Shown: positions 4,026-56,899 of the stretch, one piece after another | How positions within the stretch are numbered: position 1 is the first letter of the stretch | Layout of the letters: each line of letters starts with the position of its first letter | From: a virus | Lineage: Duplodnaviria; Caudoviricetes | Strand: one strand, 5' to 3' | Virus record (IMG/VR): IMGVR_UViG_3300010400_000024 | Coordinates: 1-56,899 of that record | Length of the DNA stretch: 56,899 bases | Translations under genes and position numbers: made by a program | The notes under the pieces: model-generated | Database searches by the model: none | What the model was told of the DNA's origin: nothing | What the model saw: the letters and a program-made list of their open reading frames with translations, nothing else

Positions 4026-4031
4026 TCCTGC

Positions 4032-4060: not shown

Positions 4061-4080
4061 GCTCTAGCTTGACAGGCGCT

Positions 4081-4122: not shown

Positions 4123-4164
4123 CTTAATCACACACCCCGTCCAGAGTAGCGACGGAAGGAAAAT

Positions 4165-7384: not shown

Positions 7385-7398
7385 CTTAAGGAGTTACT

Positions 7399-7905
7399 TT
7401 GTCTGACGATACAATGGGGCCACTCGATCTTTCAGGTGCCGATCTTACTGGCTTTGACCCTGTACCATCAGGTCAGTATAAGGTAGAGGTGTTTGAGTTC
7501 AAGCCCGTTAAGATTGACAAGGAAGATGGTAAGCTTCCCGAAGGTACACCCGGCTATGCAGTTCAGCTTAAGGTAGTCGGTGATACCGAAGGCGCAGAAG
7601 GTGAGGACTACGAGTATTTCAATCGTAGAGTGTTTACTCGCTTCTACCTTCCCGGTGGAGATTACGATAAGAGTAAGGCCGCTCGTATGAAGGGAATGTT
7701 CGTTAAGTTCCTTCTCGCTGTCGGTTACGATGAAGCCGAAGTAACGGGTGGAGCGTTCTCTGTTGATCCTGATGATGTTGTTGATCGTGAGTGCGTTGCT
7801 ACTCTTGGCATTCAGCCTGAACAGGGTGGCTATCCTGCACAGAATAAGGTCAACAGCTTTAAGTCGCTACAGGAGGTTGCTGCTAGTAGCTCAGGGTTGA
7901 TCTAA
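7399..7905 (+). CDS. DUF669-like single-stranded DNA-binding protein
   Basis: FDPVPSGQYKVEV N-terminus, NKVNSF C-terminus, acidic; follows Sak4-like gene; AAGGAG RBS. Confidence 0.7.
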   Translation: MSDDTMGPLDLSGADLTGFDPVPSGQYKVEVFEFKPVKIDKEDGKLPEGTPGYAVQLKVVGDTEGAEGEDYEYFNRRVFTRFYLPGGDYDKSKAARMKGMFVKFLLAVGYDEAEVTGGAFSVDPDDVVDRECVATLGIQPEQGGYPAQNKVNSFKSLQEVAASSSGLI

Positions 7906-7907
7906 AG

Positions 7908-8000
7908 ACTAGCTGGCTTTTCTACGGCGAAAGTACCAGCTAGTAAAGGGGGAGTAGTTTACGCTATCGTGCCGAAACGACCGTGTGACTACTCCCCCTT
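7908..8000 (+). ncRNA. tandem hairpin element between SSB and primase genes
   Basis: ACTAGCTGG/CCAGCTAGT and AAGGGGGAGTAGT/ACTACTCCCCCTT stems; loops GGCGAAA and GCCGAA. Confidence 0.55.
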
Positions 8001-8009
8001 ATCTAACCT

Positions 8010-10205: not shown

Positions 10206-10729
10206 CTAACGCACGTAAATCAAGGGAGAAGCATCGTATGGAAGAATCTAAGATTATTGACGAACAGTTTGAACAAGAGCGCATTGAAGCTATGCGAGCT
10301 AATTGGGAAGTCTACTCTTGTAGTGGTAATCAGAATCATTTGCCTTCGTGTGAAGGCTGCGAGGTAAAGAAACTTCTTCCTATAGAGATTGAGATTATCA
10401 AAGAACAGATGCGTTGGGAAGAACTTGGTATGACTCCACTAGGTAGTCCTCCACAGGTACCTCAAATTCCTGGCATTCCCACTGATAGCTTTAAGCTTTC
10501 TATCGCAGTATCAGCATTGAATAAGATGATCGTTGAGAAGCTAGGTTTGGATGAAGAAGAGTTGAACAATAAGTATCGTGAACTATTGCTAGAGAGACTA
10601 GTAACTATCAGAGAAGCAAACGAAGAAGAGATGATTGCTGCACAGCGCAGACAAGAAATTGCTGTAGCTGGTGCTGGAATTAGACCGCAACTAATCGTTC
10701 CCGAACACATCAAGAGGAAGATGCACTAA
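10202..10729 (+). CDS. hypothetical protein
   Basis: ORF coupled to neighbours. Confidence 0.6.
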   Translation: MTNARKSREKHRMEESKIIDEQFEQERIEAMRANWEVYSCSGNQNHLPSCEGCEVKKLLPIEIEIIKEQMRWEELGMTPLGSPPQVPQIPGIPTDSFKLSIAVSALNKMIVEKLGLDEEELNNKYRELLLERLVTIREANEEEMIAAQRRQEIAVAGAGIRPQLIVPEHIKRKMH

Positions 10730-10968
10730 TGAGCGTACATACCGCAAACTATGATGCCATCAAGAACGAGCTGAACATGCCTATGGGTGAACCTATCTTC
10801 ATCATTAGGGCACAAGATGATGCGTCACTAGCTACACTGGTTGACTACATGCAGCACGCTAAGAACAACGGGGCTGGTACTGAGTTTCTAGATGACGTAA
10901 GTGGAGTTATTTACAGCTTCGGTGATTGGCGTGCTAACAACGAATCTCGATGCAAGACACCCGACTGA
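10729..10968 (+). CDS. hypothetical phage protein
   Basis: EPIFIIRAQD motif; TAATG coupling. Confidence 0.6.
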   Translation: MSVHTANYDAIKNELNMPMGEPIFIIRAQDDASLATLVDYMQHAKNNGAGTEFLDDVSGVIYSFGDWRANNESRCKTPD

Positions 10969-11195
10969 TGGTTGAGGAAGTTAACCATCCAGAACATTAC
11001 GGTGGCGGAGATAACCCTTATGAGGTTATCAAGGTCATTCATGCACTTGGGTTGAACTTCAATCGTGGTAACGCTTTCAAGTATCTTGCTCGCGCTGGTA
11101 TCAAGAATCCAGCTACAGCAATAACAGATTTGCAGAAGGCTATCTTCTATCTCAACTATGAGCTAGAACTCTTGGAAGGGAAAAGAGAAGTCTAA
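10968..11195 (+). CDS. DUF3310 / T7 gp1.7-like nucleotide-kinase family protein
   Basis: VNHPEHY...GNAFKYLARAGIK...DLQKAIFYL. Confidence 0.8.
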   Translation: MVEEVNHPEHYGGGDNPYEVIKVIHALGLNFNRGNAFKYLARAGIKNPATAITDLQKAIFYLNYELELLEGKREV

Positions 11196-13531: not shown

Positions 13532-13704
13532 TGGCTAAACGGATGCGTAGACTAAGGGCAGTACAAGTTTGGGACAGAGTAGGTCAGCGTTATATGTTGG
13601 TTGAGCAAAGTGGCTTTAAGGGGCATTACGGTAAAGAGTTGAAAGATCGTAGACGTAGGGGTTATCTAGCTAAACTAGCAAGGAGGAAGAACCGTGGCAA
13701 GTAA
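13531..13704 (+). CDS. small basic protein
   Basis: GGAGG RBS, GTG start; Arg/Lys-rich. Confidence 0.5.
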   Translation: MAKRMRRLRAVQVWDRVGQRYMLVEQSGFKGHYGKELKDRRRRGYLAKLARRKNRGK

Positions 13705-13969
13705 CAGTGTAAATACTGACCCCGGTATTGTTGAACGTTATGGTAACAGTCAGCTTACTCCATCAATTATCATCGGCTTTGATGCGGAAGGAGCTGAGTA
13801 TATCACTAGGAAAATTCTGGATAATAGTGGTGATTGGACGGCTTGGGAGCGTATCGGTGATTGGTGCTATGATCCTGATAAGTCGTATTATGCTGGTTTG
13901 GAGGGTTGTCCCTTTAAGCTGGATAACACAACGTCTGACGGCTCACCCGCAGCAGGGACGGATGGCTAA
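13694..13969 (+). CDS. hypothetical protein
   Basis: AGGAGG RBS. Confidence 0.55.
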   Translation: MASNSVNTDPGIVERYGNSQLTPSIIIGFDAEGAEYITRKILDNSGDWTAWERIGDWCYDPDKSYYAGLEGCPFKLDNTTSDGSPAAGTDG

Positions 13970-14080
13970 CGTCTTCAAAACCCCCTGCCGCTGCCCCGCT
14001 CCCGCGATCGTGCCGCAAAGAGGGAGGTACACCTTGCCCGAGGCTGAGAATCGCTCCTATGGATTACTAGAAAGCAATTT

Positions 14081-46917: not shown

Positions 46918-47364
46918 CAAAATCATAAGGGATTACGGAAGGGAGGTTAGATAAACCGAATATATCTTGGCTTAAGGCCGAATATATTAGTTAAACGTGC
47001 GGTTTTTACTTGACCGCTCAACATTATAACTAAAAAGGGGTAAACTTTACAACTTCATCATAAGTAAGTGCGCCGCTAGGCCGCATGGCTCCATCAGTTT
47101 ATGCAGTTTAGCAGTTATGAAGAAGGTTTTGCTTTCTAATAGTTACCAATCGGCCTATATATACGGTTTTATCGGGATTACGGAGCTAAGGGATTACTTA
47201 CTAATAGATACTAATCCATATACTACGTAATACACCTAAAGAACTCGACTCGTTAATATGCATAACGAGGTTTACAATCGAACGCCTGTTCCCCTAGCCG
47301 TAACTACGATTGCACAGAAAGGCCGGATATGCTAATCAGCTTTATCCCACTTACCATTATCTCT
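46918..47364. repeat. AT-rich non-coding region with short direct repeats
   Basis: GGGATTAC x3 (46929, 47174, 47190); CCGAATATAT x2 (46956, 46978). Confidence 0.55.
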
Positions 47365-47411
47365 GTAGTCTGCATAATGATCCAACTCGTAGGGATCATT
47401 AGGAAGTCTAC

Positions 47412-47440
47412 TTGACACCGATAGGAAGGGATGGTATGCT
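47412..47440 (+). promoter_or_regulatory. early promoter, probably giving a leaderless mRNA
   Basis: TTGACA-N17-TATGCT with TG extension; ATG 7 nt downstream (47447). Confidence 0.8.
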
Positions 47441-47446
47441 TTGTCT

Positions 47447-47638
47447 ATGAAAGAAATCAAGGCAGATGAGCATTACACGTACACCGATCTTATCGGTTGC
47501 ACAGTAACAGGAGCCGATACGATTAACTTGACATTGAAGCATCCCGATGGTAGAGTGTTTACCGTTGAAACCATCGACGATGGTTACGGATGGTCAGGCT
47601 TTAGTGTAATTCAAGTCGAAGGGAAGGAGGTGAATTAA
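47447..47638 (+). CDS. hypothetical protein
   Basis: ATG at the predicted +1. Confidence 0.6.
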   Translation: MKEIKADEHYTYTDLIGCTVTGADTINLTLKHPDGRVFTVETIDDGYGWSGFSVIQVEGKEVN

Positions 47639-47639
47639 C

Positions 47640-47936
47640 ATGGAGAATTTGACAGCAGCCGATATTACTGCTATTCTTGCGAATAGTCGTAATCGTGGTG
47701 GACAGGATCAGTTCCTTAAGGAGTTCGCCTCCTCAGAGGATATGTATCGTATCCTGAACGAGGTTCCTCAGTTTGCTGGTAAGACTAAGGAGCAGCTCGT
47801 TAGCATCAAGAATCAGCTTACGATGAAGGCTAAGAAGGCTGAGCTTACTAACATCAAGCTGGTCAAGAACGGCGATGCTATCCTGATCGTGAACACGGAT
47901 AAGCTCGTGATGGAGTCAGACGAAGACTCTGAATAA
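47640..47936 (+). CDS. small protein, paralog of 55698-56057
   Basis: AAGGAGGTGA RBS; shared RG..D..L.(E/D)F.SS, FAGK, (I/L)(V/I)NT and acidic tail. Confidence 0.75.
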   Translation: MENLTAADITAILANSRNRGGQDQFLKEFASSEDMYRILNEVPQFAGKTKEQLVSIKNQLTMKAKKAELTNIKLVKNGDAILIVNTDKLVMESDEDSE

Positions 47937-47953
47937 CGCAACAAGGCAAGGCT

Positions 47954-48059
47954 TTAGTTAGCTTGCCTAGAGTAGTAAGGCTATAGGTATGGGAGTTTCT
48001 CTACAACCCTAACTCCCTCAGTGTAGAGTATGCCTTACTACTCTAGGAAGGCTAACTAA
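47954..48059 (+). ncRNA. stem cassette 1 enclosing an H-type pseudoknot
   Basis: 28-bp stem with one G.A mismatch; inner GGGAGTT/AACTCCC; loop CTCTACA pairs with TGTAGAG. Confidence 0.75.
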
Positions 48060-48068
48060 GGAGGAATA

Positions 48069-48335
48069 ATGGATAACGAAATGATGCCCTCATACGTGTA
48101 CAACGAACACGATGATGAGCATACAGTTAAAGGCCCGAAGCCTATCCCTGAAGGGATGCATGAGTGCGATGGCTGTAATGGGTCAGGAGTTTACTACGGT
48201 AAAGGTGCTGTAGTGAATGGTAAGTTTGTCGGCTTTACTGGTAAGTGCTACCGTTGTGGTGGCAAAGGCCACCAAGATGATAAAGACCTGAAGCGTAATC
48301 GGTATTACGACAATCACGTAAGGAAGGTGTGGTAA
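48069..48335 (+). CDS. DnaJ-type zinc-finger protein
   Basis: CDGCNGSG and CYRCGGKG. Confidence 0.7.
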   Translation: MDNEMMPSYVYNEHDDEHTVKGPKPIPEGMHECDGCNGSGVYYGKGAVVNGKFVGFTGKCYRCGGKGHQDDKDLKRNRYYDNHVRKVW

Positions 48336-48553
48336 TGGATATCGTAACAGAAGATGGAGTGAAGTTGAAGGAAGGTGACAGGGCTTACGATTACTACAAC
48401 ATGAAGCCCGGTTACATTAAGCCTAACAGTATAACAATGGCACCAGATGCATGGTTCGACTTTGTGCATGATGATGGTTCGACCGATTTGCTTAACGGGC
48501 AAAGGATTTGTAGTGTAGAGTTTGCTAAGCGTAGAAGGTTTAAGGACGCATGA
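48335..48553 (+). CDS. hypothetical protein
   Basis: TAATG coupling. Confidence 0.6.
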   Translation: MDIVTEDGVKLKEGDRAYDYYNMKPGYIKPNSITMAPDAWFDFVHDDGSTDLLNGQRICSVEFAKRRRFKDA

Positions 48554-48759
48554 GTGGAGTTATCGACACCGACGGCACACAGTGGGAACGTTGTAACGGT
48601 TGCGGTGAGTTCGTGAACATGGACGACTTGCGCTACGAGCAGCCGAGTGAGAAGTTTAAGTACGGTAGGGACTTGTGCATTAAGTGTATTACTGAGACAA
48701 GCATAGCCGTTAAAAAATCCTACTTGACAGATAAGGGTTTACGTGCTATGCTTCTCTAA
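48550..48759 (+). CDS. zinc-finger hypothetical protein
   Basis: CNGC...CIKC. Confidence 0.55.
   Translation: MSGVIDTDGTQWERCNGCGEFVNMDDLRYEQPSEKFKYGRDLCIKCITETSIAVKKSYLTDKGLRAMLL
48724..48752 (+). promoter_or_regulatory. early promoter
   Basis: TTGACA-N17-TATGCT with TG extension. Confidence 0.8.
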
Positions 48760-48785
48760 GTAATCCAACCGGGAGGTAAGAGCAA

Positions 48786-49025
48786 ATGCAGGGAGTATAC
48801 GTAAGAGCTAGAAGGGTAGCAACTAAGAAGGCACTAAAAGAGGCAGTTGCGGAGAACTCGCACGTTGTCGCACTTGAGGCTACTAGCCTCTTTGGTAACG
48901 AGTACGACGGCTTCCTGTTTCAGGCACCTAACGGAGTTTACAACGTTGTCGGGCCTTGTCCTCACACAAACAGGAAGTGGTACGCAACGATCACAGTGAA
49001 GGATGGCGACGTTAAAGTCAAATAG
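48786..49025 (+). CDS. hypothetical protein
   Basis: GGGAGGT RBS. Confidence 0.65.
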   Translation: MQGVYVRARRVATKKALKEAVAENSHVVALEATSLFGNEYDGFLFQAPNGVYNVVGPCPHTNRKWYATITVKDGDVKVK

Positions 49026-49101
49026 CACTCACAGGCATAAGTGGGTGGTCACTAGAAAGGTAAGAAACACTGACCACCCACTTATCCGTAAGTGTGAGTG
49101 C
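49025..49101 (+). ncRNA. long hairpin at the start of RNA cluster 1
   Basis: GCACTCACA/TGTGAGTGC plus ATAAGTGGGTGGTCA/TGACCACCCACTTAT. Confidence 0.6.
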
Positions 49102-49140
49102 GGCGCGATTCAAAGACACCATAGAGGTAGATGGACAAGT

Positions 49141-49251
49141 TAGCTTGCATAGACTGTAGAGCGCATACCGAGCGAAAGGTGGCACTCATGGAGAGTTGGC
49201 AAAGTCAAGGGGTTCGATTCCCTCCACATTCTCTACAGTCTATGGAGGCTA
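49141..49251 (+). ncRNA. stem cassette 2 enclosing a mini tRNA-like RNA
   Basis: 21-bp stem TAGCTTGCATAGACTGTAGAG/CTCTACAGTCTATGGAGGCTA with G.G; GGGG-TTCGATT-CCCT T-arm. Confidence 0.75.
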
Positions 49252-49266
49252 GTTAGTCTCTATAAA

Positions 49267-49333
49267 AGAGAAAGTGCGAAAGCGTCGAGAGCTAGGAAAT
49301 CTCGGGGTGTATGGGCCTAGACACACTTTCTCT
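49267..49333 (+). ncRNA. multi-branch RNA with kissing loops
   Basis: AGAGAAAGTG/CACTTTCTCT; loops containing CTAGG and CCTAG. Confidence 0.6.
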
Positions 49334-49405
49334 AACAACATAATAGCTCACAGTTAAAGGAGGATAATAGCATCGGGTAAGGCTATTATCGTGCAGACGT
49401 TTTAC

Positions 49406-49566
49406 TAGTCTGCATAAGCTAGTAGGAGCAATTGCATAATAGGACAACAGTATAAAGCCTGCTCTGTCCCGGTAATGGTGAAGCAAACTACCGTAAAAGC
49501 CAGACGGTGTAAGTTGGTAGTTGAAAAGCCGTCATACCTTGCCGTCCTACTAGCTTATGGAGACTA
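49406..49566 (+). ncRNA. stem cassette 3 (~117-nt structured cargo)
   Basis: 22-bp stem TAGTCTGCATAAGCTAGTAGGA/TCCTACTAGCTTATGGAGACTA with G.G. Confidence 0.75.
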
Positions 49567-49587
49567 ATGAAAGGAGGTTAACGAAAA

Positions 49588-49713
49588 ATGGATAATAGAA
49601 ACCGTAATAACTCATGGGACGCAATTTGGCAGGATGCAGGTAAAGGCTTTAGATGGTTCTGCGGTATCCTGTTGTTTGTACTGTTCATGCATTCATGTGC
49701 AGGTGTAGGCTAA
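49588..49713 (+). CDS. small membrane peptide (41 aa) between RNA cassettes
   Basis: AAGGAGG RBS; MDNRNRNNSWDAIWQDAGKGFRWFCGILLFVLFMHSCAGVG. Confidence 0.65.
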   Translation: MDNRNRNNSWDAIWQDAGKGFRWFCGILLFVLFMHSCAGVG

Positions 49714-49865
49714 CTAGTCTGCATAAGCTAACGGGTGATATAGGAACGATAAGCGGGGCGAAAGCCTAGAATCTAGTGTCACTACACACTGGACGTGAAT
49801 CGTTCGCCGGTAGTGCGGAAAGAGGGTAATACGTACCCTCCATCCGTTAGCTTATGGAGGCTAGT
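49713..49865 (+). ncRNA. stem cassette 4 enclosing a kissing-loop RNA
   Basis: 25-bp stem with G.G; loops CACTAC and GTAGTG complementary; GAAA tetraloop. Confidence 0.8.
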
Positions 49866-49869
49866 AAAA

Positions 49870-49919
49870 CCTAGTGCTTAAGTGGGCCAGCCCATTAAAG
49901 GGTCAACACTTGTACTAGG
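49870..49919 (+). ncRNA. hairpin following cassette 4
   Basis: CCTAGTGC..AAGTG/CACTT-GTACTAGG. Confidence 0.45.
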
Positions 49920-49982
49920 ACGCATGGATGGCGATAAGCTAGCCTCCAAGAACTTTAATCACACACAAGCAGGAGAGTTGCT

Positions 49983-50225
49983 ATGATAGACCTATGCGAC
50001 AGAAACCACGAAGGACTTGTGGTGAAGTTGTGGTATCAAGAACCCGACGAAATCACTATTACCGTTAGGGACGAAAGGAACGGTGAGAACTTTGCACTCG
50101 AAGTTGATCCGAGAGATGCTCTCGACGCGTACTACCACCCCTTTGCTTACAGAGATAGAGAGGCAAGAGTTGGTGTACTGGCCGAAGGTGATGCTAAGCG
50201 CAACAACGGCGATTGCCTGCCGTAA
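49983..50225 (+). CDS. hypothetical protein
   Basis: AGGAG RBS; ALDAYYHPFAY. Confidence 0.7.
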   Translation: MIDLCDRNHEGLVVKLWYQEPDEITITVRDERNGENFALEVDPRDALDAYYHPFAYRDREARVGVLAEGDAKRNNGDCLP

Positions 50226-50255
50226 AATCGAAGAGCTAGCAGAAAGGTGTAAAGC

Positions 50256-50450
50256 ATGAATGATGGCCCACCACAGATAAGAGCAGTACCACCGATGAAG
50301 CACTACACAATGGAGATTACGCTAGTTGATAGCGGTCTACCATACACTGATAAAGAGGACGCCGAGAAAGCCGCTAACGAGTGGGCTAAAGAACTTGCTA
50401 GTGGTGAAAACTGCATGGTAGGTAAAGTAGTAGTAAGAGAAGATGCCTAG
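50256..50450 (+). CDS. hypothetical protein
   Basis: ORF in early operon. Confidence 0.55.
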   Translation: MNDGPPQIRAVPPMKHYTMEITLVDSGLPYTDKEDAEKAANEWAKELASGENCMVGKVVVREDA

Positions 50451-50604
50451 ACTAACTAGGATAAAGCTGCTAGAGTTGTGGCATCATGAATACAACCGTA
50501 TGTTGGCTAAGTATGGTGATCCGGTTTACGCCGTAAAACAAGCTGATGCAGCTTGGTCAGAACCGATAGCTCTCAGCAGCATATTAAGGAGTAAATATGT
50601 ATAG
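50443..50604 (+). CDS. hypothetical protein (53 aa)
   Basis: MPRLTRIKLLELWHHEYNRM...; overlaps both neighbours. Confidence 0.45.
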   Translation: MPRLTRIKLLELWHHEYNRMLAKYGDPVYAVKQADAAWSEPIALSSILRSKYV

Positions 50605-50788
50605 ATACGAATGTCTAGCTTACGTCTGTAAAGAGAATAACGTCTATTGGTCTGAAACGTATGTGAACAATAGAACGTTGGGGCGTAACATTAAAACTCG
50701 TGAAGAAGAAATGACTAAACTTCATAGGGAGCATTACCCTATTGAGTCTCATAACCACATTGTAAAGCGGAGGAAGGTTAAATCATAA
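50597..50788 (+). CDS. hypothetical protein
   Basis: AAGGAG RBS. Confidence 0.55.
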   Translation: MYRYECLAYVCKENNVYWSETYVNNRTLGRNIKTREEEMTKLHREHYPIESHNHIVKRRKVKS

Positions 50789-51054
50789 TGTCAGCAGATA
50801 ACGGCTTCGCTATCCTGTCACTAGATGATAAGCCTGAGTATTGGGGCATCTTCTACTATAGTGGTGAAACTGATAGCACTACTGCTTTGTCTAAGGATGC
50901 TAGAGATGTACTAGCTAATCCTATCACGGCTATCCTTAAAGCTCATAGGATGCAGAAGCAGGAGAGAACTGAGTATGGCGTCTATGTTAGTGAAGAATGT
51001 CTAACGGCGGCTTTTCTCACAATGTCAGATTACCTATCAAGTGGGATAGCATGA
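50788..51054 (+). CDS. hypothetical protein
   Basis: MSADNG...TEYGV; TAATG coupling. Confidence 0.6.
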   Translation: MSADNGFAILSLDDKPEYWGIFYYSGETDSTTALSKDARDVLANPITAILKAHRMQKQERTEYGVYVSEECLTAAFLTMSDYLSSGIA

Positions 51055-51212
51055 CTATGTACCACATAACAGGGGTAACGTTCTACGGCATAAGGTTTAA
51101 GATTCGCACTACTAACCGTTTGCACGCTGAAATGATTAACGTGCATAGAGGCACCTTGTGGCAAGTAGATAGGAACGGCAAGCGAAAGATTCTAAGGAGG
51201 TATGGCTGGTAA
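51051..51212 (+). CDS. small basic hypothetical protein
   Basis: ATGA overlap. Confidence 0.5.
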   Translation: MTMYHITGVTFYGIRFKIRTTNRLHAEMINVHRGTLWQVDRNGKRKILRRYGW

Positions 51213-51373
51213 TGGCTAAAAGGATTGTACTAGTCTTTGATTACTCTGATGCCACTGATGATGCAGGAACACAAAAGTTCCTAGAAGATGTGGCTAGAGA
51301 TTTGAACGAAGACTTAAGACATTACGTAGGGTATCAAGGATGGAGGGTAGAAGATGACAGTAGCTCAGATTAG
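51212..51373 (+). CDS. small acidic hypothetical protein
   Basis: AAGGAGG RBS; TAATG coupling. Confidence 0.5.
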   Translation: MAKRIVLVFDYSDATDDAGTQKFLEDVARDLNEDLRHYVGYQGWRVEDDSSSD

Positions 51374-51539
51374 AAAGATGGGTGAGCTTACTGGCGAATT
51401 GGGTGATGCTAAGAAGGTCAACTTCAGTCAGTGGACTCATGGTAAGTTTATCTCTTTGACATTCATGAAACTTAATGGGGAGGTATGGCGATACGATATC
51501 TATCCTAATGGTGAATATGAAGGAGAACAAAGTGTCTGA
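51354..51539 (+). CDS. hypothetical protein
   Basis: GGAGG RBS. Confidence 0.55.
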   Translation: MTVAQIRKMGELTGELGDAKKVNFSQWTHGKFISLTFMKLNGEVWRYDIYPNGEYEGEQSV

Positions 51540-51615
51540 ATGGATAATCAGAATCGTAGTTGGATTCATTATCTTTGTATGGGTATTCTTCGTCGTAGTG
51601 GAGGCTTTGTCATAA
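51532..51615 (+). CDS. single-TM peptide (27 aa)
   Basis: AAGGAG RBS, GTG start; SEWIIRIVVGFIIFVWVFFVVVEALS. Confidence 0.5.
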   Translation: MSEWIIRIVVGFIIFVWVFFVVVEALS

Positions 51616-51788
51616 TGACACTAGAAAAATATGAAGTGTTCATTAAGGGTAAGGATAAGATGATTCAAAGTTGGACATTGTTCTTTGAAGCTGAGAACTT
51701 TGCTCATGCAGAGGAACAAGCTCAAGATTACCTAGACGATAACGATGAAATCGTCAAGATAACAAAGGACTACAAAAATGCCGGTTAA
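51615..51788 (+). CDS. hypothetical protein
   Basis: GGAGG RBS; EAENFAHAEEQA. Confidence 0.55.
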   Translation: MTLEKYEVFIKGKDKMIQSWTLFFEAENFAHAEEQAQDYLDDNDEIVKITKDYKNAG

Positions 51789-52029
51789 GTTTGATAGACA
51801 GCATTACAACGCATTAGCTAAGCTCTTTAGGTACACTATAAGGGAGGCAGCGAGTGTTGACCTAGATGAGCGTAATGGTGTCATTAGATTTGCGATGGAA
51901 TGCACTCAATACTTCAAATTGGGTGATCCATTGTTTGACCCTATTCAGTTTCTAGATGCATGTACGCCCGAAGAGGATAGAGAGATTAACAATCTAAGCG
52001 AATTGTGGGTGAATGATGTGGGAAATTGA
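51778..52029 (+). CDS. hypothetical protein
   Basis: RQHYNALAK...FDPIQFLDAC. Confidence 0.6.
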   Translation: MPVKFDRQHYNALAKLFRYTIREAASVDLDERNGVIRFAMECTQYFKLGDPLFDPIQFLDACTPEEDREINNLSELWVNDVGN

Positions 52030-52324
52030 TAAAGACTACATTAACACTGACCCTGGTGATACAAATAGGGTAGGTGTTAAGGGTGAAACGGTTAACGTAG
52101 GATTTGGTCATATCATGCCTGAGTGGATTGACCTACCTAGTGACGCACCAGTGGTAAGGTTTCACATGAAGGATGATGATGGTCAGGTGTATTACGGCGG
52201 TTGGCTGCACAACGATGATGAATGTCTGAATCAGGATGCAGCTCTGCATTACGGTAAGTACGATGCTGGTTGTACTACCATCGAAGTCATGATTGACGGA
52301 AAGTGGAGGCAGGACATTGGATAA
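52013..52324 (+). CDS. hypothetical protein
   Basis: FHMKDDDGQVYYGG. Confidence 0.6.
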   Translation: MMWEIDKDYINTDPGDTNRVGVKGETVNVGFGHIMPEWIDLPSDAPVVRFHMKDDDGQVYYGGWLHNDDECLNQDAALHYGKYDAGCTTIEVMIDGKWRQDIG

Positions 52325-52589
52325 CGAGGTAATTGTAGAGAAGATGAAGGTAGCACTCGCAAGTGTAGCTGGTGATGCTCATGCGTTTATGAATCAGTAC
52401 GACATTAGTGCTGAAAACGTTATCGTTATCAACTTTCACTATGTTGAGAAGGCTGTTGAGAGGCTAATGAAGCTTTCTGACGATGATGATGGTTCAGAAC
52501 TAGTAGTGATTCTTCAAGTACTAGCAGCAGCTAGCTTTAGTACTGGATTCCTTCTAGGGTATCAGTTTGCCAATGACAGAAAATCTTAA
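52293..52589 (+). CDS. hypothetical protein
   Basis: ORF in operon; start may be TTG ~52317. Confidence 0.55.
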   Translation: MTESGGRTLDNEVIVEKMKVALASVAGDAHAFMNQYDISAENVIVINFHYVEKAVERLMKLSDDDDGSELVVILQVLAAASFSTGFLLGYQFANDRKS

Positions 52590-52734
52590 ACAATACACAG
52601 TGGTTATGTATCATCCTCTTGACCTTGCTAAAGCTGTCATAGCGGAAGAAGGTGTAAATGAGGAAGATGTAAGGGCTAAGATAGAGTTGAAGTACAGTAA
52701 GTGGGTAATCGAAGAGATTAAGGAGGCAAAGTGA
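52573..52734 (+). CDS. hypothetical protein (53 aa)
   Basis: MTENLKQYTVVMY...; overlaps neighbours. Confidence 0.45.
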   Translation: MTENLKQYTVVMYHPLDLAKAVIAEEGVNEEDVRAKIELKYSKWVIEEIKEAK

Positions 52735-52877
52735 CAGTTAAGTTTAGCCATCGTCCTGCAACTGCACCTATGGGTAGGTTTGGCGGTTGTTGGCAACTTA
52801 AGGTTGGTATCCAAGCTTCTCGTTCTACCGTACTTATCAGTCTACTTATCGCGGAGCTGAAAATCAGCTTTAAGTGA
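52731..52877 (+). CDS. hypothetical protein (48 aa)
   Basis: AAGGAGG RBS, GTG start. Confidence 0.45.
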   Translation: MTVKFSHRPATAPMGRFGGCWQLKVGIQASRSTVLISLLIAELKISFK

Positions 52878-52907
52878 GTTAGCGCAAATATCCGATCCAA
52901 TATCGGC

Positions 52908-52936
52908 TTGACATTTACTAGGAATTATGATAGGCT
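52908..52936 (+). promoter_or_regulatory. early promoter
   Basis: TTGACA-N17-TAGGCT with TG extension. Confidence 0.8.
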
Positions 52937-53145
52937 GGTCTAGCCGTCCTAATCACACAGGGGGTCTTATTGCTCTTTATGACTCCACCGCAGTTAGCAG
53001 CGATAGCGCAACTGCACAAGGATAAGACAGAAAGTATCACATTGCAAAAAGCACATGGTTTAGCCGGTTATCTTCAGATAACCTTTTGGCTAGATGATGG
53101 CAAATGGCACGACTTCTTACTAACACCAGAAGGAGAGATAGAGTA

Positions 53146-53304
53146 ATGGAAGAACAGCTTAAGGCTGAGTTGGTAGAACAAGTTAAGTCAATGAAGTGGA
53201 ATGCAGACATTGTCGTCTTGAATGACGATGGTGAAGAACTTGAAGTTACCGATGTAAGCTTTGACAATGAGCTGGACAGAGTAGTGATTCAGGTGGAAGC
53301 CTAA
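53146..53304 (+). CDS. small acidic hypothetical protein
   Basis: AAGGAG RBS. Confidence 0.55.
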   Translation: MEEQLKAELVEQVKSMKWNADIVVLNDDGEELEVTDVSFDNELDRVVIQVEA

Positions 53305-53305
53305 G

Positions 53306-53503
53306 ATGGGAGTTGTTGAAGATTTCTACAAGTCTGGTGATTTAGGCTTGGACGTATCAGCAGGGATAAGTCCAGAAGCAGTTGAAGCGTTGTTTAATGA
53401 ACTTGCAAATTTCCCTGATGTTATCCTAGCCGTTAGTGGCACCACAGTAATCTTGTATAACAAGAGGTATGTAAAGGTGGTGGTAAAGGACAATGGAAGT
53501 TAG
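53306..53503 (+). CDS. hypothetical protein
   Basis: ORF in operon. Confidence 0.55.
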   Translation: MGVVEDFYKSGDLGLDVSAGISPEAVEALFNELANFPDVILAVSGTTVILYNKRYVKVVVKDNGS

Positions 53504-53804
53504 ACTTAACAAGAGTTGGAACTGTCTATCTGCTGGTACTAGACTTCTAGTGCTAGCTGATGATAACGTTGAATGGGAAAAGCCAGGTGATCCAATTAGT
53601 CATGGCTTTATCACTGTAGAACTACTACACTCTAGTAAGAAACTGTTGGACATTGAGCCTCGTATGGCTTACCCGTTCGATATCGAGTATGACTACGTTA
53701 CTGAGTGTAGGCCGACAGTTGAGTACGTTCCTTCAGAAAACCGCCACAAGCGTAGAACTCTTAAACGTAATGAGTATGAACTCAAGCAAGCGTTGGGAGT
53801 TTGA
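53493..53804 (+). CDS. hypothetical protein
   Basis: AAGGA RBS. Confidence 0.6.
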   Translation: MEVRLNKSWNCLSAGTRLLVLADDNVEWEKPGDPISHGFITVELLHSSKKLLDIEPRMAYPFDIEYDYVTECRPTVEYVPSENRHKRRTLKRNEYELKQALGV

Positions 53805-53814
53805 GAGGTAAGTT

Positions 53815-54402
53815 ATGAAGGCAAGTAGCCTATGGCCGGGAACACACTATGCCTACCAGTATGGACTTGGTAGAGGTAGAGAACTTCCTTTGGACGCCAG
53901 AAGGATTGTGGTGCTTAGACTTGAAAGTACCCCTATCCCTGGTGGTAGAAAGTCTCGCACAGAAGCACTCGTAATGTTTATGGATGAAGAAGGTGGTGCT
54001 ATCACTGAAGGACGTGATAGTAAGCCTAGAATGGTAAAGGCACCTGATATCATCAACTTTTGGGACGATTACGAAATGGAGCGAGATGCTCTTAAGGAAG
54101 AGAAGAGGATTAAACGAGAGAAAAGACTACAGCAAGAAGCTCAATGGAAGAAAGAACGTGACGAACGTTGGGCTATTGAAGCGGTAGCAACGTTTATCTA
54201 TCGTGCGGCCGAAAGTATGCGTAGGTGGGAACGTGAAAGGCATCTACGAGAAGCTGCACAGATGGAAGAAGCACGACAGAGAAGGATTAAGAACGTTCTC
54301 ATTACAAGAGGCTTAACACGAGAAGCCATTGTAGTGAACAACGGCAGCGTAATACTACAACGGGACGATGTTGAAAGGTGGTTAGGTATTCAGAATGACT
54401 AA
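53815..54402 (+). CDS. hypothetical protein with charged coiled coil
   Basis: GAGG RBS; E/R/K-rich helix. Confidence 0.65.
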   Translation: MKASSLWPGTHYAYQYGLGRGRELPLDARRIVVLRLESTPIPGGRKSRTEALVMFMDEEGGAITEGRDSKPRMVKAPDIINFWDDYEMERDALKEEKRIKREKRLQQEAQWKKERDERWAIEAVATFIYRAAESMRRWERERHLREAAQMEEARQRRIKNVLITRGLTREAIVVNNGSVILQRDDVERWLGIQND

Positions 54403-54673
54403 TCCATTGAGTATGGATTTCATTAAAGCACTAGTGAAGAAACAGGAGTATAAAGAAGTGGGACATAAGCCCATCTTTACAAGCGAAGAGTTGAAGTTGA
54501 TTAAGACAACGATCAAGGCTGGACAGCAAACACTTCGTATGCGTAATAAGAACTTCCGAGTTAGGTACTTCATCTGGAAGAAAACCGAGTGGGTTACGGT
54601 TAAGCCTGTTATGGGCTTTGTCCCGATGTTCTCTTCACCAAAGGATGATGTACTAAGAGCGGAGATTCTGTAA
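54395..54673 (+). CDS. hypothetical basic protein
   Basis: ORF in operon. Confidence 0.55.
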   Translation: MTNPLSMDFIKALVKKQEYKEVGHKPIFTSEELKLIKTTIKAGQQTLRMRNKNFRVRYFIWKKTEWVTVKPVMGFVPMFSSPKDDVLRAEIL

Positions 54674-54674
54674 C

Positions 54675-54947
54675 ATGGACTTGACAGTTAGACAAGAGAA
54701 AGTAGTTAGACTCTTGTGGCGTCATAGCAGGTGGGACTCAACAAGGGTGATAACTCAAGACTTGAACATTAGGGAAGATTATCGTAGTGGTGTGTTTACG
54801 ATCGGTCAAGTAAGGTCTATCCTAGCGAGACTTGAGAATCGTGAAATTGTTGTACGCAGAGGTTTTCCTGCACGATGGCAGTTGACTACACATGCAAGAA
54901 ATCATCTACTCGCTAAGGGGTTTAAAAGTGACTCAAAAACCACTTGA
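54675..54947 (+). CDS. winged-helix DNA-binding protein
   Basis: LTVRQEKVVRLL...QVRSILARLENREIVVRRG...WQLT. Confidence 0.6.
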   Translation: MDLTVRQEKVVRLLWRHSRWDSTRVITQDLNIREDYRSGVFTIGQVRSILARLENREIVVRRGFPARWQLTTHARNHLLAKGFKSDSKTT

Positions 54948-55224
54948 TGTTGGTTCGCTTAAAGGCTTGTTGGCTAAAGAAGAAGAACGTGAAAAGAAAG
55001 AAACAGCCAACAAAATTCGTAATAAGAACTTCCCTACTGAACCGAGGGATTTCGATACTTGGTTTAAGCTACCTACTAGATTCGCTGACTGTCACCAGGC
55101 AGATGATTGTATTGATCCAAGGGTTGATAGGACTAAAACTGGACATACAATGGTAGCGATGGTAAATGGTAGTGAGATTTGTCGCTACTGTTTTCTTGCA
55201 GGAGCTAACAAAGTTTCTACATGA
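54892..55224 (+). CDS. hypothetical Cys-containing protein
   Basis: CHQADDC...ICRYC. Confidence 0.55.
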   Translation: MQEIIYSLRGLKVTQKPLDVGSLKGLLAKEEEREKKETANKIRNKNFPTEPRDFDTWFKLPTRFADCHQADDCIDPRVDRTKTGHTMVAMVNGSEICRYCFLAGANKVST

Positions 55225-55679
55225 AAGCGATTATCGGTCATATCGAGAAGGTCTACAATGCAATATTAGATCAAGCAACTGTTGAAGTTATTGATGGTAA
55301 CGAGTTGCATATTTACCGAGGGCAGATATCTAAGCTGTATGCTACCCTTGGTATTGCACAATCGTACTACACTGAGATATTTCAGCAGTTGGACGATCAG
55401 GGTTGTATCGTTATGCTTCAACGTGGTAGTAAAGGGGTAGACAGTGTTATCGTATGCCTCCATGAGCCGTCTGAGGCCGGATACCAGCCCCCGCGAGGGC
55501 CGAGGGACTTGACAAGCGCCGAGGACTTTGCTAATATGATCGAGGAACACAGATTGCTCGTTAAACTAGTAGGAGGTATGGATATCGTAGAAGCGTTTAG
55601 AGAGTTCGATAAGAGGTTGAAGCGCCTAGAAGATATACCGGGGCGCGAGAAGTTCAGTAAAACACAAACCGAAGTATAA
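55221..55679 (+). CDS. putative winged-helix protein
   Basis: ISKLYATLGIAQSYYTEIFQQLDDQGCIVMLQRG. Confidence 0.55.
   Translation: MKAIIGHIEKVYNAILDQATVEVIDGNELHIYRGQISKLYATLGIAQSYYTEIFQQLDDQGCIVMLQRGSKGVDSVIVCLHEPSEAGYQPPRGPRDLTSAEDFANMIEEHRLLVKLVGGMDIVEAFREFDKRLKRLEDIPGREKFSKTQTEV
55509..55537 (+). promoter_or_regulatory. early promoter (intragenic) for 55698 and RNA cluster 2
   Basis: TTGACA-N17-TAATAT with TG extension. Confidence 0.75.
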
Positions 55680-55697
55680 CTAAGGAGAGAATAGAAA

Positions 55698-56057
55698 ATG
55701 GCACAGGCAATTGACGCTCAGATGATTCAGGCACTTCTGTCGAAGCAGAAGAGTCGTGGTGATTACGATGCAGACCTTCGTGATTTCCTTTCGTCTGGTA
55801 ACGCTGGTGTAGAGATCGACCTGTCGAGTGGTCGTTTTGCTGGTAAGCGTGCGAAGCAGGTTAAGACTGGCTTCGACAATGCCCGTAAAAAGACTAACGA
55901 TCAGGGTCTTGTTCATCCGGGTGGTACTCTCGTTAAGGTCATTGCTATCAATGACAAGAACGATGATGAGGGTAATCCGAAGGGCGAGCAGGAAGAGCAT
56001 GTTTATCTCATCAATACTGCTCTGCTCGGTAGTGAAGAGGACGAAGCCGCAGCGTAG
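55698..56057 (+). CDS. small protein, paralog of 47640-47936
   Basis: AAGGAG RBS; shared motifs and acidic tail. Confidence 0.75.
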   Translation: MAQAIDAQMIQALLSKQKSRGDYDADLRDFLSSGNAGVEIDLSSGRFAGKRAKQVKTGFDNARKKTNDQGLVHPGGTLVKVIAINDKNDDEGNPKGEQEEHVYLINTALLGSEEDEAAA

Positions 56058-56112
56058 TATAGTAAGTTCCCTTGCAAAGGGAGAACATGGAGAGGGGCAC
56101 GAAAGTGCCTCT

Positions 56113-56209
56113 TTCCATATTAAGCCTCTGAAAAACGGTGTGATTAGTAAATCAGTTTGAACGGTAGCAAGTAAATACCGTTACGGTCACTCAGAGGCTT
56201 AATATGGAA
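56113..56209 (+). ncRNA. stem cassette 5
   Basis: 19-bp stem TTCCATATTAAGCCTCTGA/TCAGAGGCTTAATATGGAA; inner hairpins TGATT/AATCA and AACGGTA/TACCGTT. Confidence 0.7.
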
Positions 56210-56245
56210 GTATCCATAAAGTACGTAGCCGAAGTATAGGGCTAC

Positions 56246-56345
56246 CGGCACAGTGGGCACCTTAAGCAAGTGCGATAGTAGTGTTACGGGATAGTTACTC
56301 TGTAACAGCTTAAACTACTAGCGGGTTCGACTCCCGCAAGTGCCG
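56246..56345 (+). ncRNA. tRNA-like pseudoknotted RNA with canonical T-arm (not a decoding tRNA)
   Basis: CGGCAC/GTGCCG closing stem, GCAC/GTGC arm, TAGTAGT/ACTACTA arm, GCGGG-TTCGACT-CCCGC. Confidence 0.7.
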
Positions 56346-56373
56346 TTGTTATCACACAAGCAAAGGAAAAACG

Positions 56374-56454
56374 ATGAATGATCTACTAGATGTAATCATG
56401 TTCTTCGTAACAGTGGGAACGATTGTTCTCTTTGTTGTAGCTGTAACGCATTAA
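56374..56454 (+). CDS. single-TM peptide (26 aa)
   Basis: AAAGGA RBS; MNDLLDVIMFFVTVGTIVLFVVAVTH. Confidence 0.55.
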   Translation: MNDLLDVIMFFVTVGTIVLFVVAVTH

Positions 56455-56539
56455 CTCAGGTAAGATGGTATAGGATTCGATATCATATAAAAATCCTCAA
56501 AATTTTGAATTTGGAATCTGGTTAAAGAGGTTTAGAGAT

Positions 56540-56568
56540 TTGACAAGCGGTTAATTTTGTGCTACCCT
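56540..56568 (+). promoter_or_regulatory. promoter driving an apparently non-coding transcript
   Basis: TTGACA-N17-TACCCT with TG extension; AT-rich upstream element. Confidence 0.7.
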
Positions 56569-56575
56569 TATGGGT

Positions 56576-56673
56576 GCAGCGTCCCGGTTGGAAAGGCTGC
56601 TAGGAGGGTTAGCGTGGAACGTTCTTGTGTGAGGCGTATGAGCGTTAGCCCTCCTACTAAATAATCACACAAG
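56576..56673 (+). ncRNA. hairpin RNA whose loop is complementary to the TCACACAAG motif
   Basis: TAGGAGGGTTAGCGT/GCGTTAGCCCTCCTA; loop CTTGTGTGA versus TCACACAAG at 56665. Confidence 0.6.
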
Positions 56674-56679
56674 GCAGGC

Positions 56680-56785
56680 GTTAATGTTGCTTAGACTCCC
56701 TACTCTACACTTTGACCCTAAAGGGCTTGCGGCTAATAGGGATGAGATGGCGCATAGTGTAGAAGGGAGTCTAAGGAACATTAAC
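56680..56785 (+). ncRNA. stem cassette 6
   Basis: GTTAATGTTGCTTAGACTCCCT..TCTACACT / AGTGTAGA-AGGGAGTCTAAGGAACATTAAC with G.G. Confidence 0.75.
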
Positions 56786-56841
56786 TCCGTCGCAAAGTTA
56801 ATGTTCCGTAGCGAGACTACCCCCCGTAGTCTCTCTCCCCC

Positions 56842-56892
56842 GGCGGGTAAGATAGAGGTTCCCCTGAATCCATCTTACCCGCCAATTTTATT
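56842..56892 (+). terminator. probable intrinsic terminator
   Basis: GGCGGGTAAGAT/ATCTTACCCGCC followed by AATTTTATT. Confidence 0.55.
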
Positions 56893-56899
56893 GTATACA

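What the first reader, a model, noticed from the sequence alone, without database searches (positions are those of the whole stretch)
47944..56807. Every cassette has a fold-back partner ending exactly at UGC+2 nt, predicting the cut site and end protection
Seen: just upstream of each 5' arm is a sequence that can pair with that arm, and pairing stops at the same register (...UGCAU/UGCCU/UGCUU/UCCAU). The pairs are AGGCAAG 47944/CTTGCCT 47962; ATG..CAAG 49131/CTTG-CAT 49144; GTGCAGAC 49391/GTCTGCAT 49408; GTGTAGGCT 49703/AGTCTGCAT 49716; 14-bp GAAA hairpin 56087-56118; AGGCAG 56672/TTGCTT 56687. On the 3' side the segment starting near GGA either refolds with a downstream complement (49244-49261; 49855/49939; 56203/56213; 56775/56796) or is followed directly by an AAGGAGG RBS (48058, 49571). 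A cut after UGCNU and before GGA gives the 2-nt 3' overhang typical of RNase III-family enzymes. Inference: after cleavage both flanking RNAs refold into terminal hairpins that resist exonucleases, or expose an RBS. The alternative reading is that these are conformational switches.
Basis: partly seen in the sequence, partly recalled or inferred. Interest (0 to 1): 0.85.

Follow-up and report, generated by a model that had tools for sequence, protein, structure and literature searches.

The report
Mismatched long stems in phage RNA
A soil phage's early genes are separated by long RNA hairpin stems that all carry one conserved mismatched G, most likely cutting sites for a double-strand-specific RNase; the proposed fold-back caps exist at only about half of them.

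Summary
The six fold-back pairs are in the sequence at the stated coordinates, but they are uneven. Against shuffled controls, C3 and C4 are supported. C5 is an obvious 14-bp GAAA hairpin. C1 is borderline. C2 and C6 are at chance level. Combined P is about 0.001-0.007.

The 5' arm pairs on for another 6-14 bp with the 3' flank, so each cassette is a 20-30 bp helix. It has one conserved G-G or G-A mismatch near its centre, with the motif 5'-YUGNNU / 5'-ANNRAR. This motif recurs in distant relatives (helicase about 55% identical), which show no fold-backs.

At equilibrium the fold-back population is about 0 in C1, C2, C3 and C6. The alternative fold holds about 20% in C4 (about 2% for C6's downstream pairing), and flanking hairpins dominate in C5.

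The best reading is RNase III-type processing stalks in early phage transcripts. The cut position and the number of strands cut are unknown, and end-capping by refolding is plausible for about half the cassettes. This is a new variant of a known kind. No RNA data could be found.

The parts
47365..47411 (+). C0: simple hairpin member of the family (G-A mismatch at 47372/47404, plus two further mismatches). It lies directly before the TTGACA promoter-like site at 47412.
   Evidence: z -4.1, 0 of 200 shuffles; no fold-back
47944..47950 (+). X1: upstream partner AGGCAAG of the C1 5' box (7 bp, perfect)
   Evidence: (P 0.053 shuffles, 0.016 natural windows)
47952..48061 (+). C1: 30-position stem with 29 pairs and a G-A mismatch at 47965/48048; 50-nt interior
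   Evidence: z -6.6
48058..48064 (+). AAGGAGG ribosome-binding site of ORF 48069-48335; 4 of its 7 bases lie in the C1 outer helix
48685..48767 (+). Further family member (G-A mismatch 48694/48758 plus a C-C mismatch). It encloses the promoter-like site at 48724-48752. No fold-back.
   Evidence: (z -5.9)
49133..49259 (+). C2: 29-position stem with a G-G mismatch at 49147/49245; the interior has a T-arm-like hairpin (tRNA-like). Its fold-back is at chance level.
   Evidence: z -5.5
49391..49398 (+). X3: upstream partner GTGCAGAC of the C3 5' box (8 bp). A related strain has A at 49391, which turns a G-U pair into A-U.
   Evidence: (P 0.0005)
49400..49572 (+). C3: 28-position stem with a G-G mismatch at 49412/49560; 117-nt interior; followed by AAAGGAGG at 49570-77 and ORF 49588-49713
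49703..49711 (+). X4: upstream partner GTGTAGGCT of the C4 5' box (9 bp, 3 of them G-U). It lies in the end of ORF 49588-49713.
   Evidence: (P 0.039)
49713..49865 (+). C4: 25-position stem with a G-G mismatch at 49721/49857; strongly structured 103-nt interior (z -5.2). In the MFE fold the stalk continues outward to about 49681/49931.
49938..49947 (+). Downstream partner of the C4 3' box (10 bp, perfect). Together with X4 it gives an alternative fold only 1.0 kcal/mol above the MFE.
   Evidence: (P 0.001)
56087..56118 (+). 14-bp GAAA-loop hairpin abutting C5. It forms in the intact RNA (pair probabilities 0.76-0.99).
56112..56210 (+). C5: variant with a C-G pair where the others have the mismatch; 20-bp stem flanked by two hairpins (the second at 56204-56217). 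It is the positional counterpart of a perfect stem after the same gene in relatives.
   Evidence: z -8.4
56677..56788 (+). C6: stem with a G-G mismatch at 56689/56776. It sits after the TTGACA at 56540 and hairpin 56601-56656, and before terminator-like hairpins. Its upstream fold-back is at chance level.
   Evidence: z -8.3
56796..56811 (+). Downstream near-copy of the C6 5' box (C in place of the mismatched G) that pairs with the C6 3' arm
   Evidence: I10; P 0.001-0.002; +3.2 kcal/mol, about 2%

Best explanation
The 'cassettes' are RNA helices made by + strand early transcripts of a roughly 57-kb siphovirus from soil. Each is a 20-30 bp stem closing a variable interior of 9-117 nt.

Near the centre of each stem is a conserved six-position core, 5'-Y U G N N U-3' opposite 5'-A N' N' R A R-3'. 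The G faces a G or an A. About 6-14 bp lie outside the mismatch and 11-16 bp inside it.

I read these as processing stalks for a double-strand-specific endoribonuclease of the RNase III family, most likely the host's. Cutting at or near the mismatch would separate cistrons and free or abut the ribosome-binding sites that follow C1 and C3. Depending on whether one or both strands are cut, the structured interior is either left as a 3' hairpin on the upstream RNA or released as a small RNA.

The fold-back partners are a real secondary feature of about half the members (C3, C4, C5, weakly C1), and downstream partners exist at C4 and C6. They can replace the outer helix with flanking hairpins and could cap new ends or gate cleavage. 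They are neither universal nor able to fix the cut site.

Shown here: the helices, their strand, the motif, its conservation in relatives, the positions relative to genes, and the alternative pairings.

Inferred: cleavage itself, the enzyme, the cut position and the consequences.
For: Helices: MFE folds and stem scans. z-scores are -4.1 to -8.4, with 0 of 200 shuffles as stable, for the 6 stems tested.

RNA level and strand: there are 10 G-U against 2 A-C oppositions over 12 stems. Minus-strand folds are 5-7 kcal/mol weaker, and in C1 and C2 (2 of the 3 refolded) they open a 3x3 loop around the mismatch. All 5 strict-motif hits in the window lie on the + strand between 47964 and 56777.

Not chance: a looser G-purine-mismatch stem scan found 8 hits in 1,033,186 nt of unrelated viral contigs, both strands.

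Motif over 12 stems (8 from the window, 4 from relatives): position -2 is a pyrimidine in 12 of 12; -1 is U-A in 11 of 12; position 0 is G-G in 8, G-A in 3 and C-G in 1; +3 is U-A in 11 of 12.

Relatives with about 55% helicase identity keep the G-G mismatch while the inner stem covaries (L013 and L135 against L007).

Geometry fits the described ideal RNase III substrate: 22 bp, with distal boxes about 11 bp from a central target site (PMC3867540, passages). B. subtilis RNase III cuts stems of 10-36 bp whose strands lie up to 505 nt apart, with a 2-bp offset (bioRxiv 10.1101/2023.03.12.532304, section 7 read).

Context: the stems sit between same-strand small early ORFs with promoter-like TTGACA sites. 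RBSs follow C1 and C3 directly.

Fold-backs. One natural variant, G49391A, improves the C3 fold-back.
Against: There is no RNA-end or expression data, and the host is unknown.

The core's sequence conservation is stronger than what RNase III is described to need. That may instead point to another sequence-specific protein.

No RNase III domain was found in the 30 phage ORFs scanned with Pfam, so the enzyme would have to be the host's.

In B. subtilis, positions around mapped cuts are more than 90% paired at -2/+2 (same bioRxiv section).

Fold-backs are absent from 4 of 8 window members and from 4 of 4 stems in relatives.

The early region of Bacillus phage SPO1, a close relative of SP82 (the classic Gram-positive case), shows no comparable stems.
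Confidence: 0.5

Rival explanations
1. Both strands are cut, after UGCNU and before GGA. The outer duplex then falls apart, and both flanking RNAs refold into terminal hairpins or expose an RBS.
For: The geometry gives a 2-nt 3' overhang in 5 of 6 cassettes (register). Helices ending exactly at that U are 7, 8, 9 and 14 bp in C1, C3, C4 and C5. Refolded products lie within 2-9 kcal/mol of the retained duplex. C4 and C6 have downstream partners that start at or next to GGA. G49391A strengthens the C3 fold-back.
Against: C2, C6, C0 and the 48688 stem have no supported partner. C1 gives a 1-nt overhang. Relatives lack fold-backs. The end of the fold-back coincides with a conserved motif position, so the register is not independent evidence. 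A mismatch at the target site is described as favouring a single-strand cut (PMC3867540, passages).
Confidence: 0.15
2. T7-style single-strand cut. The mismatch lets only the 3' strand be cut, so the whole cassette stays as a protective 3' hairpin on the upstream RNA and the downstream cistron is freed. Fold-backs would be only transient co-transcriptional intermediates.
For: The conserved single mismatch lies at the helix centre. The review statement on mismatches and single-strand cuts that create 3' stability hairpins (PMC3867540, passages). Fold-back population at equilibrium is about 0 in C1, C2, C3 and C6. Fold-backs leave the inner arm free, so the main helix can nucleate and displace them (inference).
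Against: C5 has no mismatch. The alternative partners of C4 and C5 are populated at equilibrium. No end data exist.
Confidence: 0.2
3. The motif is the binding or cutting site of a different sequence-specific protein, phage or host. Examples would be a translational repressor, or a stability factor acting on many early intercistronic sites.
For: Six motif positions are conserved across phages whose helicases are only about 55% identical. A gene family without known domains (47640-47936, 55698-56057 and two homologues in the relative) lies within about 40 nt of a long stem in 4 of 4 cases.
Against: The model of that protein (pLDDT 76.9) has no PDB fold match at E<=0.001, and nothing marks it as RNA-binding. 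Adjacency alone is weak evidence.
Confidence: 0.15
4. Conformational switches. The outer helix and the pair of flanking hairpins are two functional states that gate cleavage or translation.
For: The C4 alternative fold is +1.0 kcal/mol with about 20% of the ensemble. C6 is +3.2 kcal/mol. In C5 the flanking hairpins dominate. The alternative partners pair the G that is mismatched in the main helix.
Against: C1 and C3 are +11.6 and +7.7 kcal/mol. Four members have no partner at all. No ligand or signal is in sight.
Confidence: 0.1
5. DNA-level repeats: miniature transposable elements or recombination remnants with terminal inverted repeats, with no RNA role.
For: The inverted arms share boxes between C1 and C2 and between C3 and C4. 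There are 8 members here against 2 G-G stems in the relative examined most fully.
Against: Interiors are unrelated apart from one 10-nt match between C1 and C6. There are no flanking direct repeats. G-U against A-C asymmetry is 10 to 2. All members are on the transcribed strand. Arms covary between members.
Confidence: 0.03

Closest known systems
RNase III processing sites in the early transcripts of coliphage T7 (details recalled; the general statement that most T7 transcripts carry such a site was read in PMC3867540)
   Same: Intercistronic hairpins in early polycistronic phage RNA. The helix is interrupted at the target site. The proposed role is to separate cistrons and leave stabilising hairpins.
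   Different: Here there is a single purine-purine mismatch rather than an internal loop. The stems close large interiors of 50-117 nt. The sequence core differs. The host is unknown and cleavage has not been shown.
Long-range intramolecular RNase III targets of Bacillus subtilis (bioRxiv 10.1101/2023.03.12.532304, section 7 read) and the rRNA processing stalks (PMC4838370, passages)
   Same: Duplexes of 10-36 bp whose strands lie tens to hundreds of nt apart.
   Different: Those sites share no strong sequence motif and are more than 90% paired next to the cuts. The phage stems share a six-position core with a mismatch.
SP82 early-mRNA RNase III sites (Panganiban and Whiteley 1983; Mitra and Bechhofer 1994; seen only as references in PMC4838370, content not read)
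   Same: Phage early RNA of a Gram-positive host cut by the host RNase III.
   Different: I could not compare sequences. The related SPO1 terminal-redundancy region (1-14000) shows no stems of this kind at 16 pairs or more.
Bacterial Y RNAs of the YrlA type (PMC4201824, passages read)
   Same: A long closing stem plus a tRNA-like domain with a T-arm, as in C2. Also found in phages.
   Different: No TROVE/Rsr gene was found among the 30 ORFs scanned with Pfam. The GNCGAA box is absent by my reading. The arm order is tRNA-like, not permuted. Rfam gave no hit.
Correia/nemis-type miniature repeats whose transcripts are RNase III substrates (recalled, not read)
   Same: Inverted arms of about 26 bp that form RNase III-type hairpins in mRNA.
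   Different: Interiors here are unrelated and there are no target duplications. The arms covary rather than being copies.

Membership tests
Bacterial RNase III substrate | Double-helical segment of about two turns (20-22 bp or more) | tested here: met
   17-29 pairs in the 8 window stems (C0 and the 48688 stem carry two further mismatches); z -4.1 to -8.4 in the 6 tested
Bacterial RNase III substrate | RNase III-dependent cleavage with 2-nt 3' overhangs | not testable with these tools
   No RNA run is listed for this sequence; the host is unknown
Bacterial RNase III substrate | Proximal and distal box determinants, and absence of antideterminant pairs | tested here: inconclusive
   The cut site is unknown, so the boxes cannot be placed. 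U-G wobbles occur 2-3 bp outside the mismatch in 6 of 12 stems.
Phage early-transcript processing site (T7 type) | Intercistronic position in same-strand early operons | tested here: met
   Stems lie between + strand small ORFs with promoter-like sites. C1 and C3 are followed by an RBS and a start codon.
Y RNA / YrlA | Ro60/Rsr (TROVE) gene in the genome | tested here: not met
   No TROVE hit in the 30 ORFs scanned with Pfam or the 10 scanned with PHROGs. Not every small ORF was scanned.
Y RNA / YrlA | GNCGAA(N)G box near the 5' end, and T and D arms flanking an acceptor-like hairpin | tested here: not met
   My reading of C2 against the description in PMC4201824; no Rfam match
tRNA | Cloverleaf accepted by a tRNA finder at default settings | tested here: not met
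   ARAGORN gave 0 genes. Calls appeared only at relaxed thresholds, for 49124-49231 and 56256-56345.
Miniature inverted-repeat transposable element | Homologous interiors and target-site duplications | tested here: not met
   All-against-all comparison of 7 interiors gave one 10-nt match. No flanking direct repeats.

The most novel reading that the evidence does not exclude
A clade of soil phages uses a sequence-defined double-stranded RNA module: a helix of about 25 bp with a G-purine mismatch in the core 5'-YUGNNU/ANNRAR. It would act as a portable 'cut-and-cap' cassette. The module excises arbitrary structured small RNAs, including tRNA-like ones, from early transcripts. Built-in alternative partners then replace the outer helix and seal both new ends, or gate the cut. 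This would be an RNA-level processing grammar more specific than anything known for bacterial RNase III.
Probability: 0.15. Interest if true: 0.65.

Novelty: new variant of a known kind. Interest (0 to 1): 0.4.

Why it matters
Phage early-RNA processing is known in detail for only a few model phages. This uncultured clade has an expanded family of at least eight processing-type stems. They share a short, testable sequence-plus-mismatch core that is conserved across distant relatives. They enclose unrelated structured RNAs, and the genome has two ORF-poor, RNA-rich loci.

If the core does direct cleavage, it would be a compact and portable processing signal, and a handle for finding the phage's small RNAs.

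The fold-back idea, where it holds, suggests how ends could be protected after a double cut. That is easy to test once a host or an in-vitro system is available.

Tried and rejected
Rfam found nothing at gathering thresholds over the whole window. At E<=10 over 47000-56899 it gave only chance-level microRNA-type hits and a T-arm fragment of tmRNA.

ARAGORN at default settings found no tRNA.

blastn of 47300-50000 and 55900-56899 against cultured phages found no match. A protein search with the DNA polymerase gave hits below 60% in every record, and about 26-30% in the 15 best listed, several of them Bacillus phages. The genome-contig scan found one irrelevant MAG hit. The host therefore remains unknown.

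The exact 14-mer of the C3/C4 box in IMG/VR gave 116 single, chance-like matches, none with the paired motif. The paired C3/C4 box pattern gave 0 matches.

Helicase-based searches in IMG/VR and JGI metagenomes found nothing closer than 55% identity.

Sequencing runs: no RNA holder is listed. The laid DNA contigs gave only a few visible variants. 69 further differences and 9 pieces were not shown, so I cannot say the cassettes are otherwise invariant.

One search is not used, because the pairing constraint was not enforced in that script.

Closer relatives exist: 29 homologues of the 55698-56057 protein among 71 candidates, the closest 88, 83 and 80% identical, on Logan or ENA contigs. I did not call it.

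The structure of that protein (pLDDT 76.9) had 0 PDB matches at E<=0.001. I gave up the idea that it is a recognisable RNA-binding protein.

Scanning the SPO1 early region for similar stems found nothing comparable.

T-arm-like hairpins do not occur in the early regions I hold for the relatives.

An extra 9.4 kb of relative G001 holds no further motif stems on the + strand.

The Y RNA and MITE readings were rejected on the membership tests above. The DNA-level reading was rejected on the G-U asymmetry.

I did not try complex prediction, the protein-atlas search or a covariance model.

Supplementary files of the papers were not opened. Tables S3, S5 and S6 of the B. subtilis preprint, which list cleavage sites, might refine the comparison with the motif.

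Full report
WHAT THE WINDOW IS. The window is a complete IMG/VR virus record of 56,899 bp (97% complete, linear). It encodes helicase, primase, DNA polymerase, portal, terminase and tape measure proteins. It also has a Dit protein of the SPP1 type and a lysin with PG_binding_1 and a weak CHAP match below Pfam's cut-off. These mark a siphovirus with Gram-positive-type features. The polymerase is below 60% identical in every record, and about 26-30% in the 15 best cultured-phage hits listed. The finding lies in the early region, about 46-57 kb: small + strand ORFs with several TTGACA-17-TGnTAnnnT promoter-like sites.

THE OBSERVATION. The description of the cassettes is incomplete, however. Inverted-repeat and MFE analysis shows that the 5' arm does not stop at UGC. 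It continues to pair with the 3' flank for another 6-14 bp. Each cassette is therefore one helix of 20-30 positions, in which the G of UGC faces a G or an A. Six stems tested fold far better than shuffles (z -4.1 to -8.4, 0 of 200 each).

FAMILY SIZE. It also includes a plain hairpin at 47365-47411 and a stem at 48685-48767 that encloses a promoter-like site. C5 (56112-56210) is a variant with C-G in place of the mismatch.

THE MOTIF. I anchored 12 stems on the mismatch, 8 from the window and 4 from relatives.
- Position -2 on the 5' strand is a pyrimidine in 12 of 12.
- Position -1 is U-A in 11 of 12.
- Position 0 is G-G in 8, G-A in 3 and C-G in 1.
- Position +3 is U-A in 11 of 12.

The stems hold 10 G-U against 2 A-C oppositions. 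Minus-strand folds are 5-7 kcal/mol weaker. All 5 strict-motif hits are on the + strand. The helices therefore act as RNA on the gene strand. A loosened scan of 1.03 Mb of unrelated viral contigs gave only 8 hits on both strands together.

RELATIVES. The nearest contigs I could reach have about 55% helicase identity. Their early regions carry analogous stems with a G-G mismatch in the same core. The inner stem covaries between lineages (L013 and L135 against L007).

Synteny holds for one locus. The gene at 55698-56057 is 49% identical to a gene in the relatives. In both it is followed by a tetraloop hairpin abutting a perfect long stem, and further downstream by a promoter-like site, a hairpin and a G-G stem. 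The best-covered relative has 2 G-G stems against 7 here.

ARE THE FOLD-BACKS MORE THAN CHANCE?

Test 1 compared the duplex energy of the 9 nt ending at UGC+2 with the 30 nt upstream, against 2000 dinucleotide shuffles.
- C3: P 0.0005
- C4: P 0.039
- C1: P 0.053
- C5: P 0.056 (9-mer only; the full hairpin is 14 bp)
- C2: P 0.86
- C6: P 0.54
- C0: P 0.61
- 48688 stem: P 0.22
- Fisher over the 8 elements: 0.0011. Natural-window controls gave similar or lower values for the same four elements.

Test 2 measured the length of the contiguous helix ending exactly at that U: 7, 3, 8, 9, 14, 6, 2 and 2 bp for C1, C2, C3, C4, C5, C6, C0 and the 48688 stem. Fisher over 7 elements is 0.007.

The summed register profile peaks at offset 0 and halves at +1. 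The next base is the conserved A of the motif, so part of this is built in.

In the relatives, 4 stems (3 of them orthologues of one another) show nothing (P 0.20-0.51, Fisher 0.36).

One natural variant in a related strain, G49391A, changes a G-U of the C3 fold-back into A-U. The C1 fold-back region is unchanged in that strain's contig. Most variants were not displayed.

THE 3' SIDE. Only C4 (10 perfect bp with 49938-47) and C6 (with 56796-56811) have supported partners, each at P of about 0.001. C2 and C5 are at chance level. C1 reaches P 0.017 only with a partner inside the next coding region, in the 100-nt test. Both RBS statements are right, and four bases of the first RBS are inside the outer helix.

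ENERGETICS. In the intact RNA the 5' box pairs downstream with probability of about 1 in C1, C2, C3, C4 (short window) and C6. The mismatched G is unpaired. In C5 the flanking hairpin holds the box with probability 0.76-0.99.

With the downstream partner included, the alternative fold of C4 (X4 with the 5' box, plus the 3' box with 49938-47) is only 1.0 kcal/mol above the MFE and takes about 20% of the ensemble. The alternative is +3.2 kcal/mol for C6, +7.7 for C3 and +11.6 for C1.

Dissociation and refolding are therefore reasonable at cellular concentrations; that last step is inference.

The 2-nt overhang geometry is right for 5 of 6 cassettes. In C1 the literal cuts give 1 nt.

WHAT IT MOST LIKELY IS. 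The stems are long, on the transcribed strand and intercistronic. Each has a deviation from regular helix near its centre, and about one helical turn lies on each side.

This matches the described RNase III substrate: an ideal length of 22 bp, distal boxes about 11 bp from a central target site, and mismatches at the target site that favour single-strand cuts which leave stabilising 3' hairpins (PMC3867540, passages read). It also matches the mapped B. subtilis targets: 10-36 bp duplexes with up to 505 nt between the strands (bioRxiv 10.1101/2023.03.12.532304, section 7 read).

I therefore read the cassettes as RNase III-type processing stalks (confidence 0.5). Whether one or both strands are cut is open, and so is the position of the cut. 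The unusual conservation of a six-position core leaves room for another sequence-specific factor.

The fold-backs are best seen as an accessory present at about half the sites.

REJECTED READINGS.
- Y RNA: no TROVE gene in the ORFs scanned, no Rsr box, a different arm order, and no Rfam hit (PMC4201824 passages).
- True tRNA: none found.
- MITE or DNA repeat: interiors unrelated, no target duplications, and G-U asymmetry.
- A recognisable RNA-binding role for the adjacent gene family: no fold match.

NOVELTY AND SCORE. Phage early-RNA processing hairpins are a classical kind. New here are the single purine-purine mismatch core shared across a clade, the large unrelated interiors, the expansion to at least eight members, and the alternative partners that pair the otherwise mismatched G. 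My literature searches turned up no description of such a motif. That covers only the open-access library searched. I rate the finding a new variant of a known kind, with interest 0.4.

LIMITS. There is no RNA data and no known host. Paper supplements were not read.

Noticed in passing
window 56256-56345: tRNA-like element with a perfect T-arm (CGGG-TTCGACT-CCCG), a 5-6 bp acceptor-like stem and a long anticodon-like arm. ARAGORN calls it only at relaxed thresholds. Rfam matches just the T-arm of tmRNA (E 0.002).
   Followed up: partly
window 49162-49230 (interior of C2): Four small hairpins in tRNA order, ending in a T-arm-like GGGG-TTCGATT-CCCT. ARAGORN calls it a tRNA with an intron only at relaxed settings. 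Its fold is no more stable than shuffles (z 0.06).
   Followed up: partly
window 49026-49980 and 56060-56899: Two ORF-poor stretches packed with stems. Examples are hairpin 49026-49096 (26-nt arms, again with a G-G opposition), stem 49267-49333 (z -2.5) and hairpin 56601-56656. They look like non-coding RNA arrays.
   Followed up: partly
window 47640-47936 and 55698-56057; L013 2051-2323 and 6762-7064: A paralogous small-protein family without a Pfam domain. All 4 genes in the window and one relative lie within about 40 nt of a long stem. There are 29 homologues in public metagenomes. The AF2 model has pLDDT 76.9 and no PDB fold match.
   Followed up: yes
window 46660, 47412, 47528, 47649, 48724, 55509, 56540: A repeated promoter-like TTGACA followed, after a 17-nt spacer, by a -10-like hexamer; five of the six scanned sites also have a TG just before it. 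The site at 48724 lies inside the loop and 3' arm of a family stem, so only read-through transcripts could form that stem.
   Followed up: no
window 49588-49713 and 56374-56454: Two very small hydrophobic ORFs (41 and 26 aa) sit among the RNA elements. The first has a strong RBS, and its 3' end overlaps X4 and the C4 stalk.
   Followed up: no
window 54675-54929: One low-depth contig of the likely source run joins 54675 to 54929, skipping 253 nt. This is a possible deletion variant in the population.
   Followed up: no
window 47670-56615 (run X2): A second soil metagenome holds a strain 90-99% identical in patches of the early region. This shows that natural variants exist that could test covariation.
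   Followed up: partly
L013 7082-7167; L007 1330-1425: In the relatives the perfect stem after the 55698-type gene keeps its arms (CCTTACTGTTGTGCTTA), but its interior differs between lineages: an extended stem in one and a 36-nt insert in the other. The arms are thus conserved while the cargo varies.
   Followed up: partly
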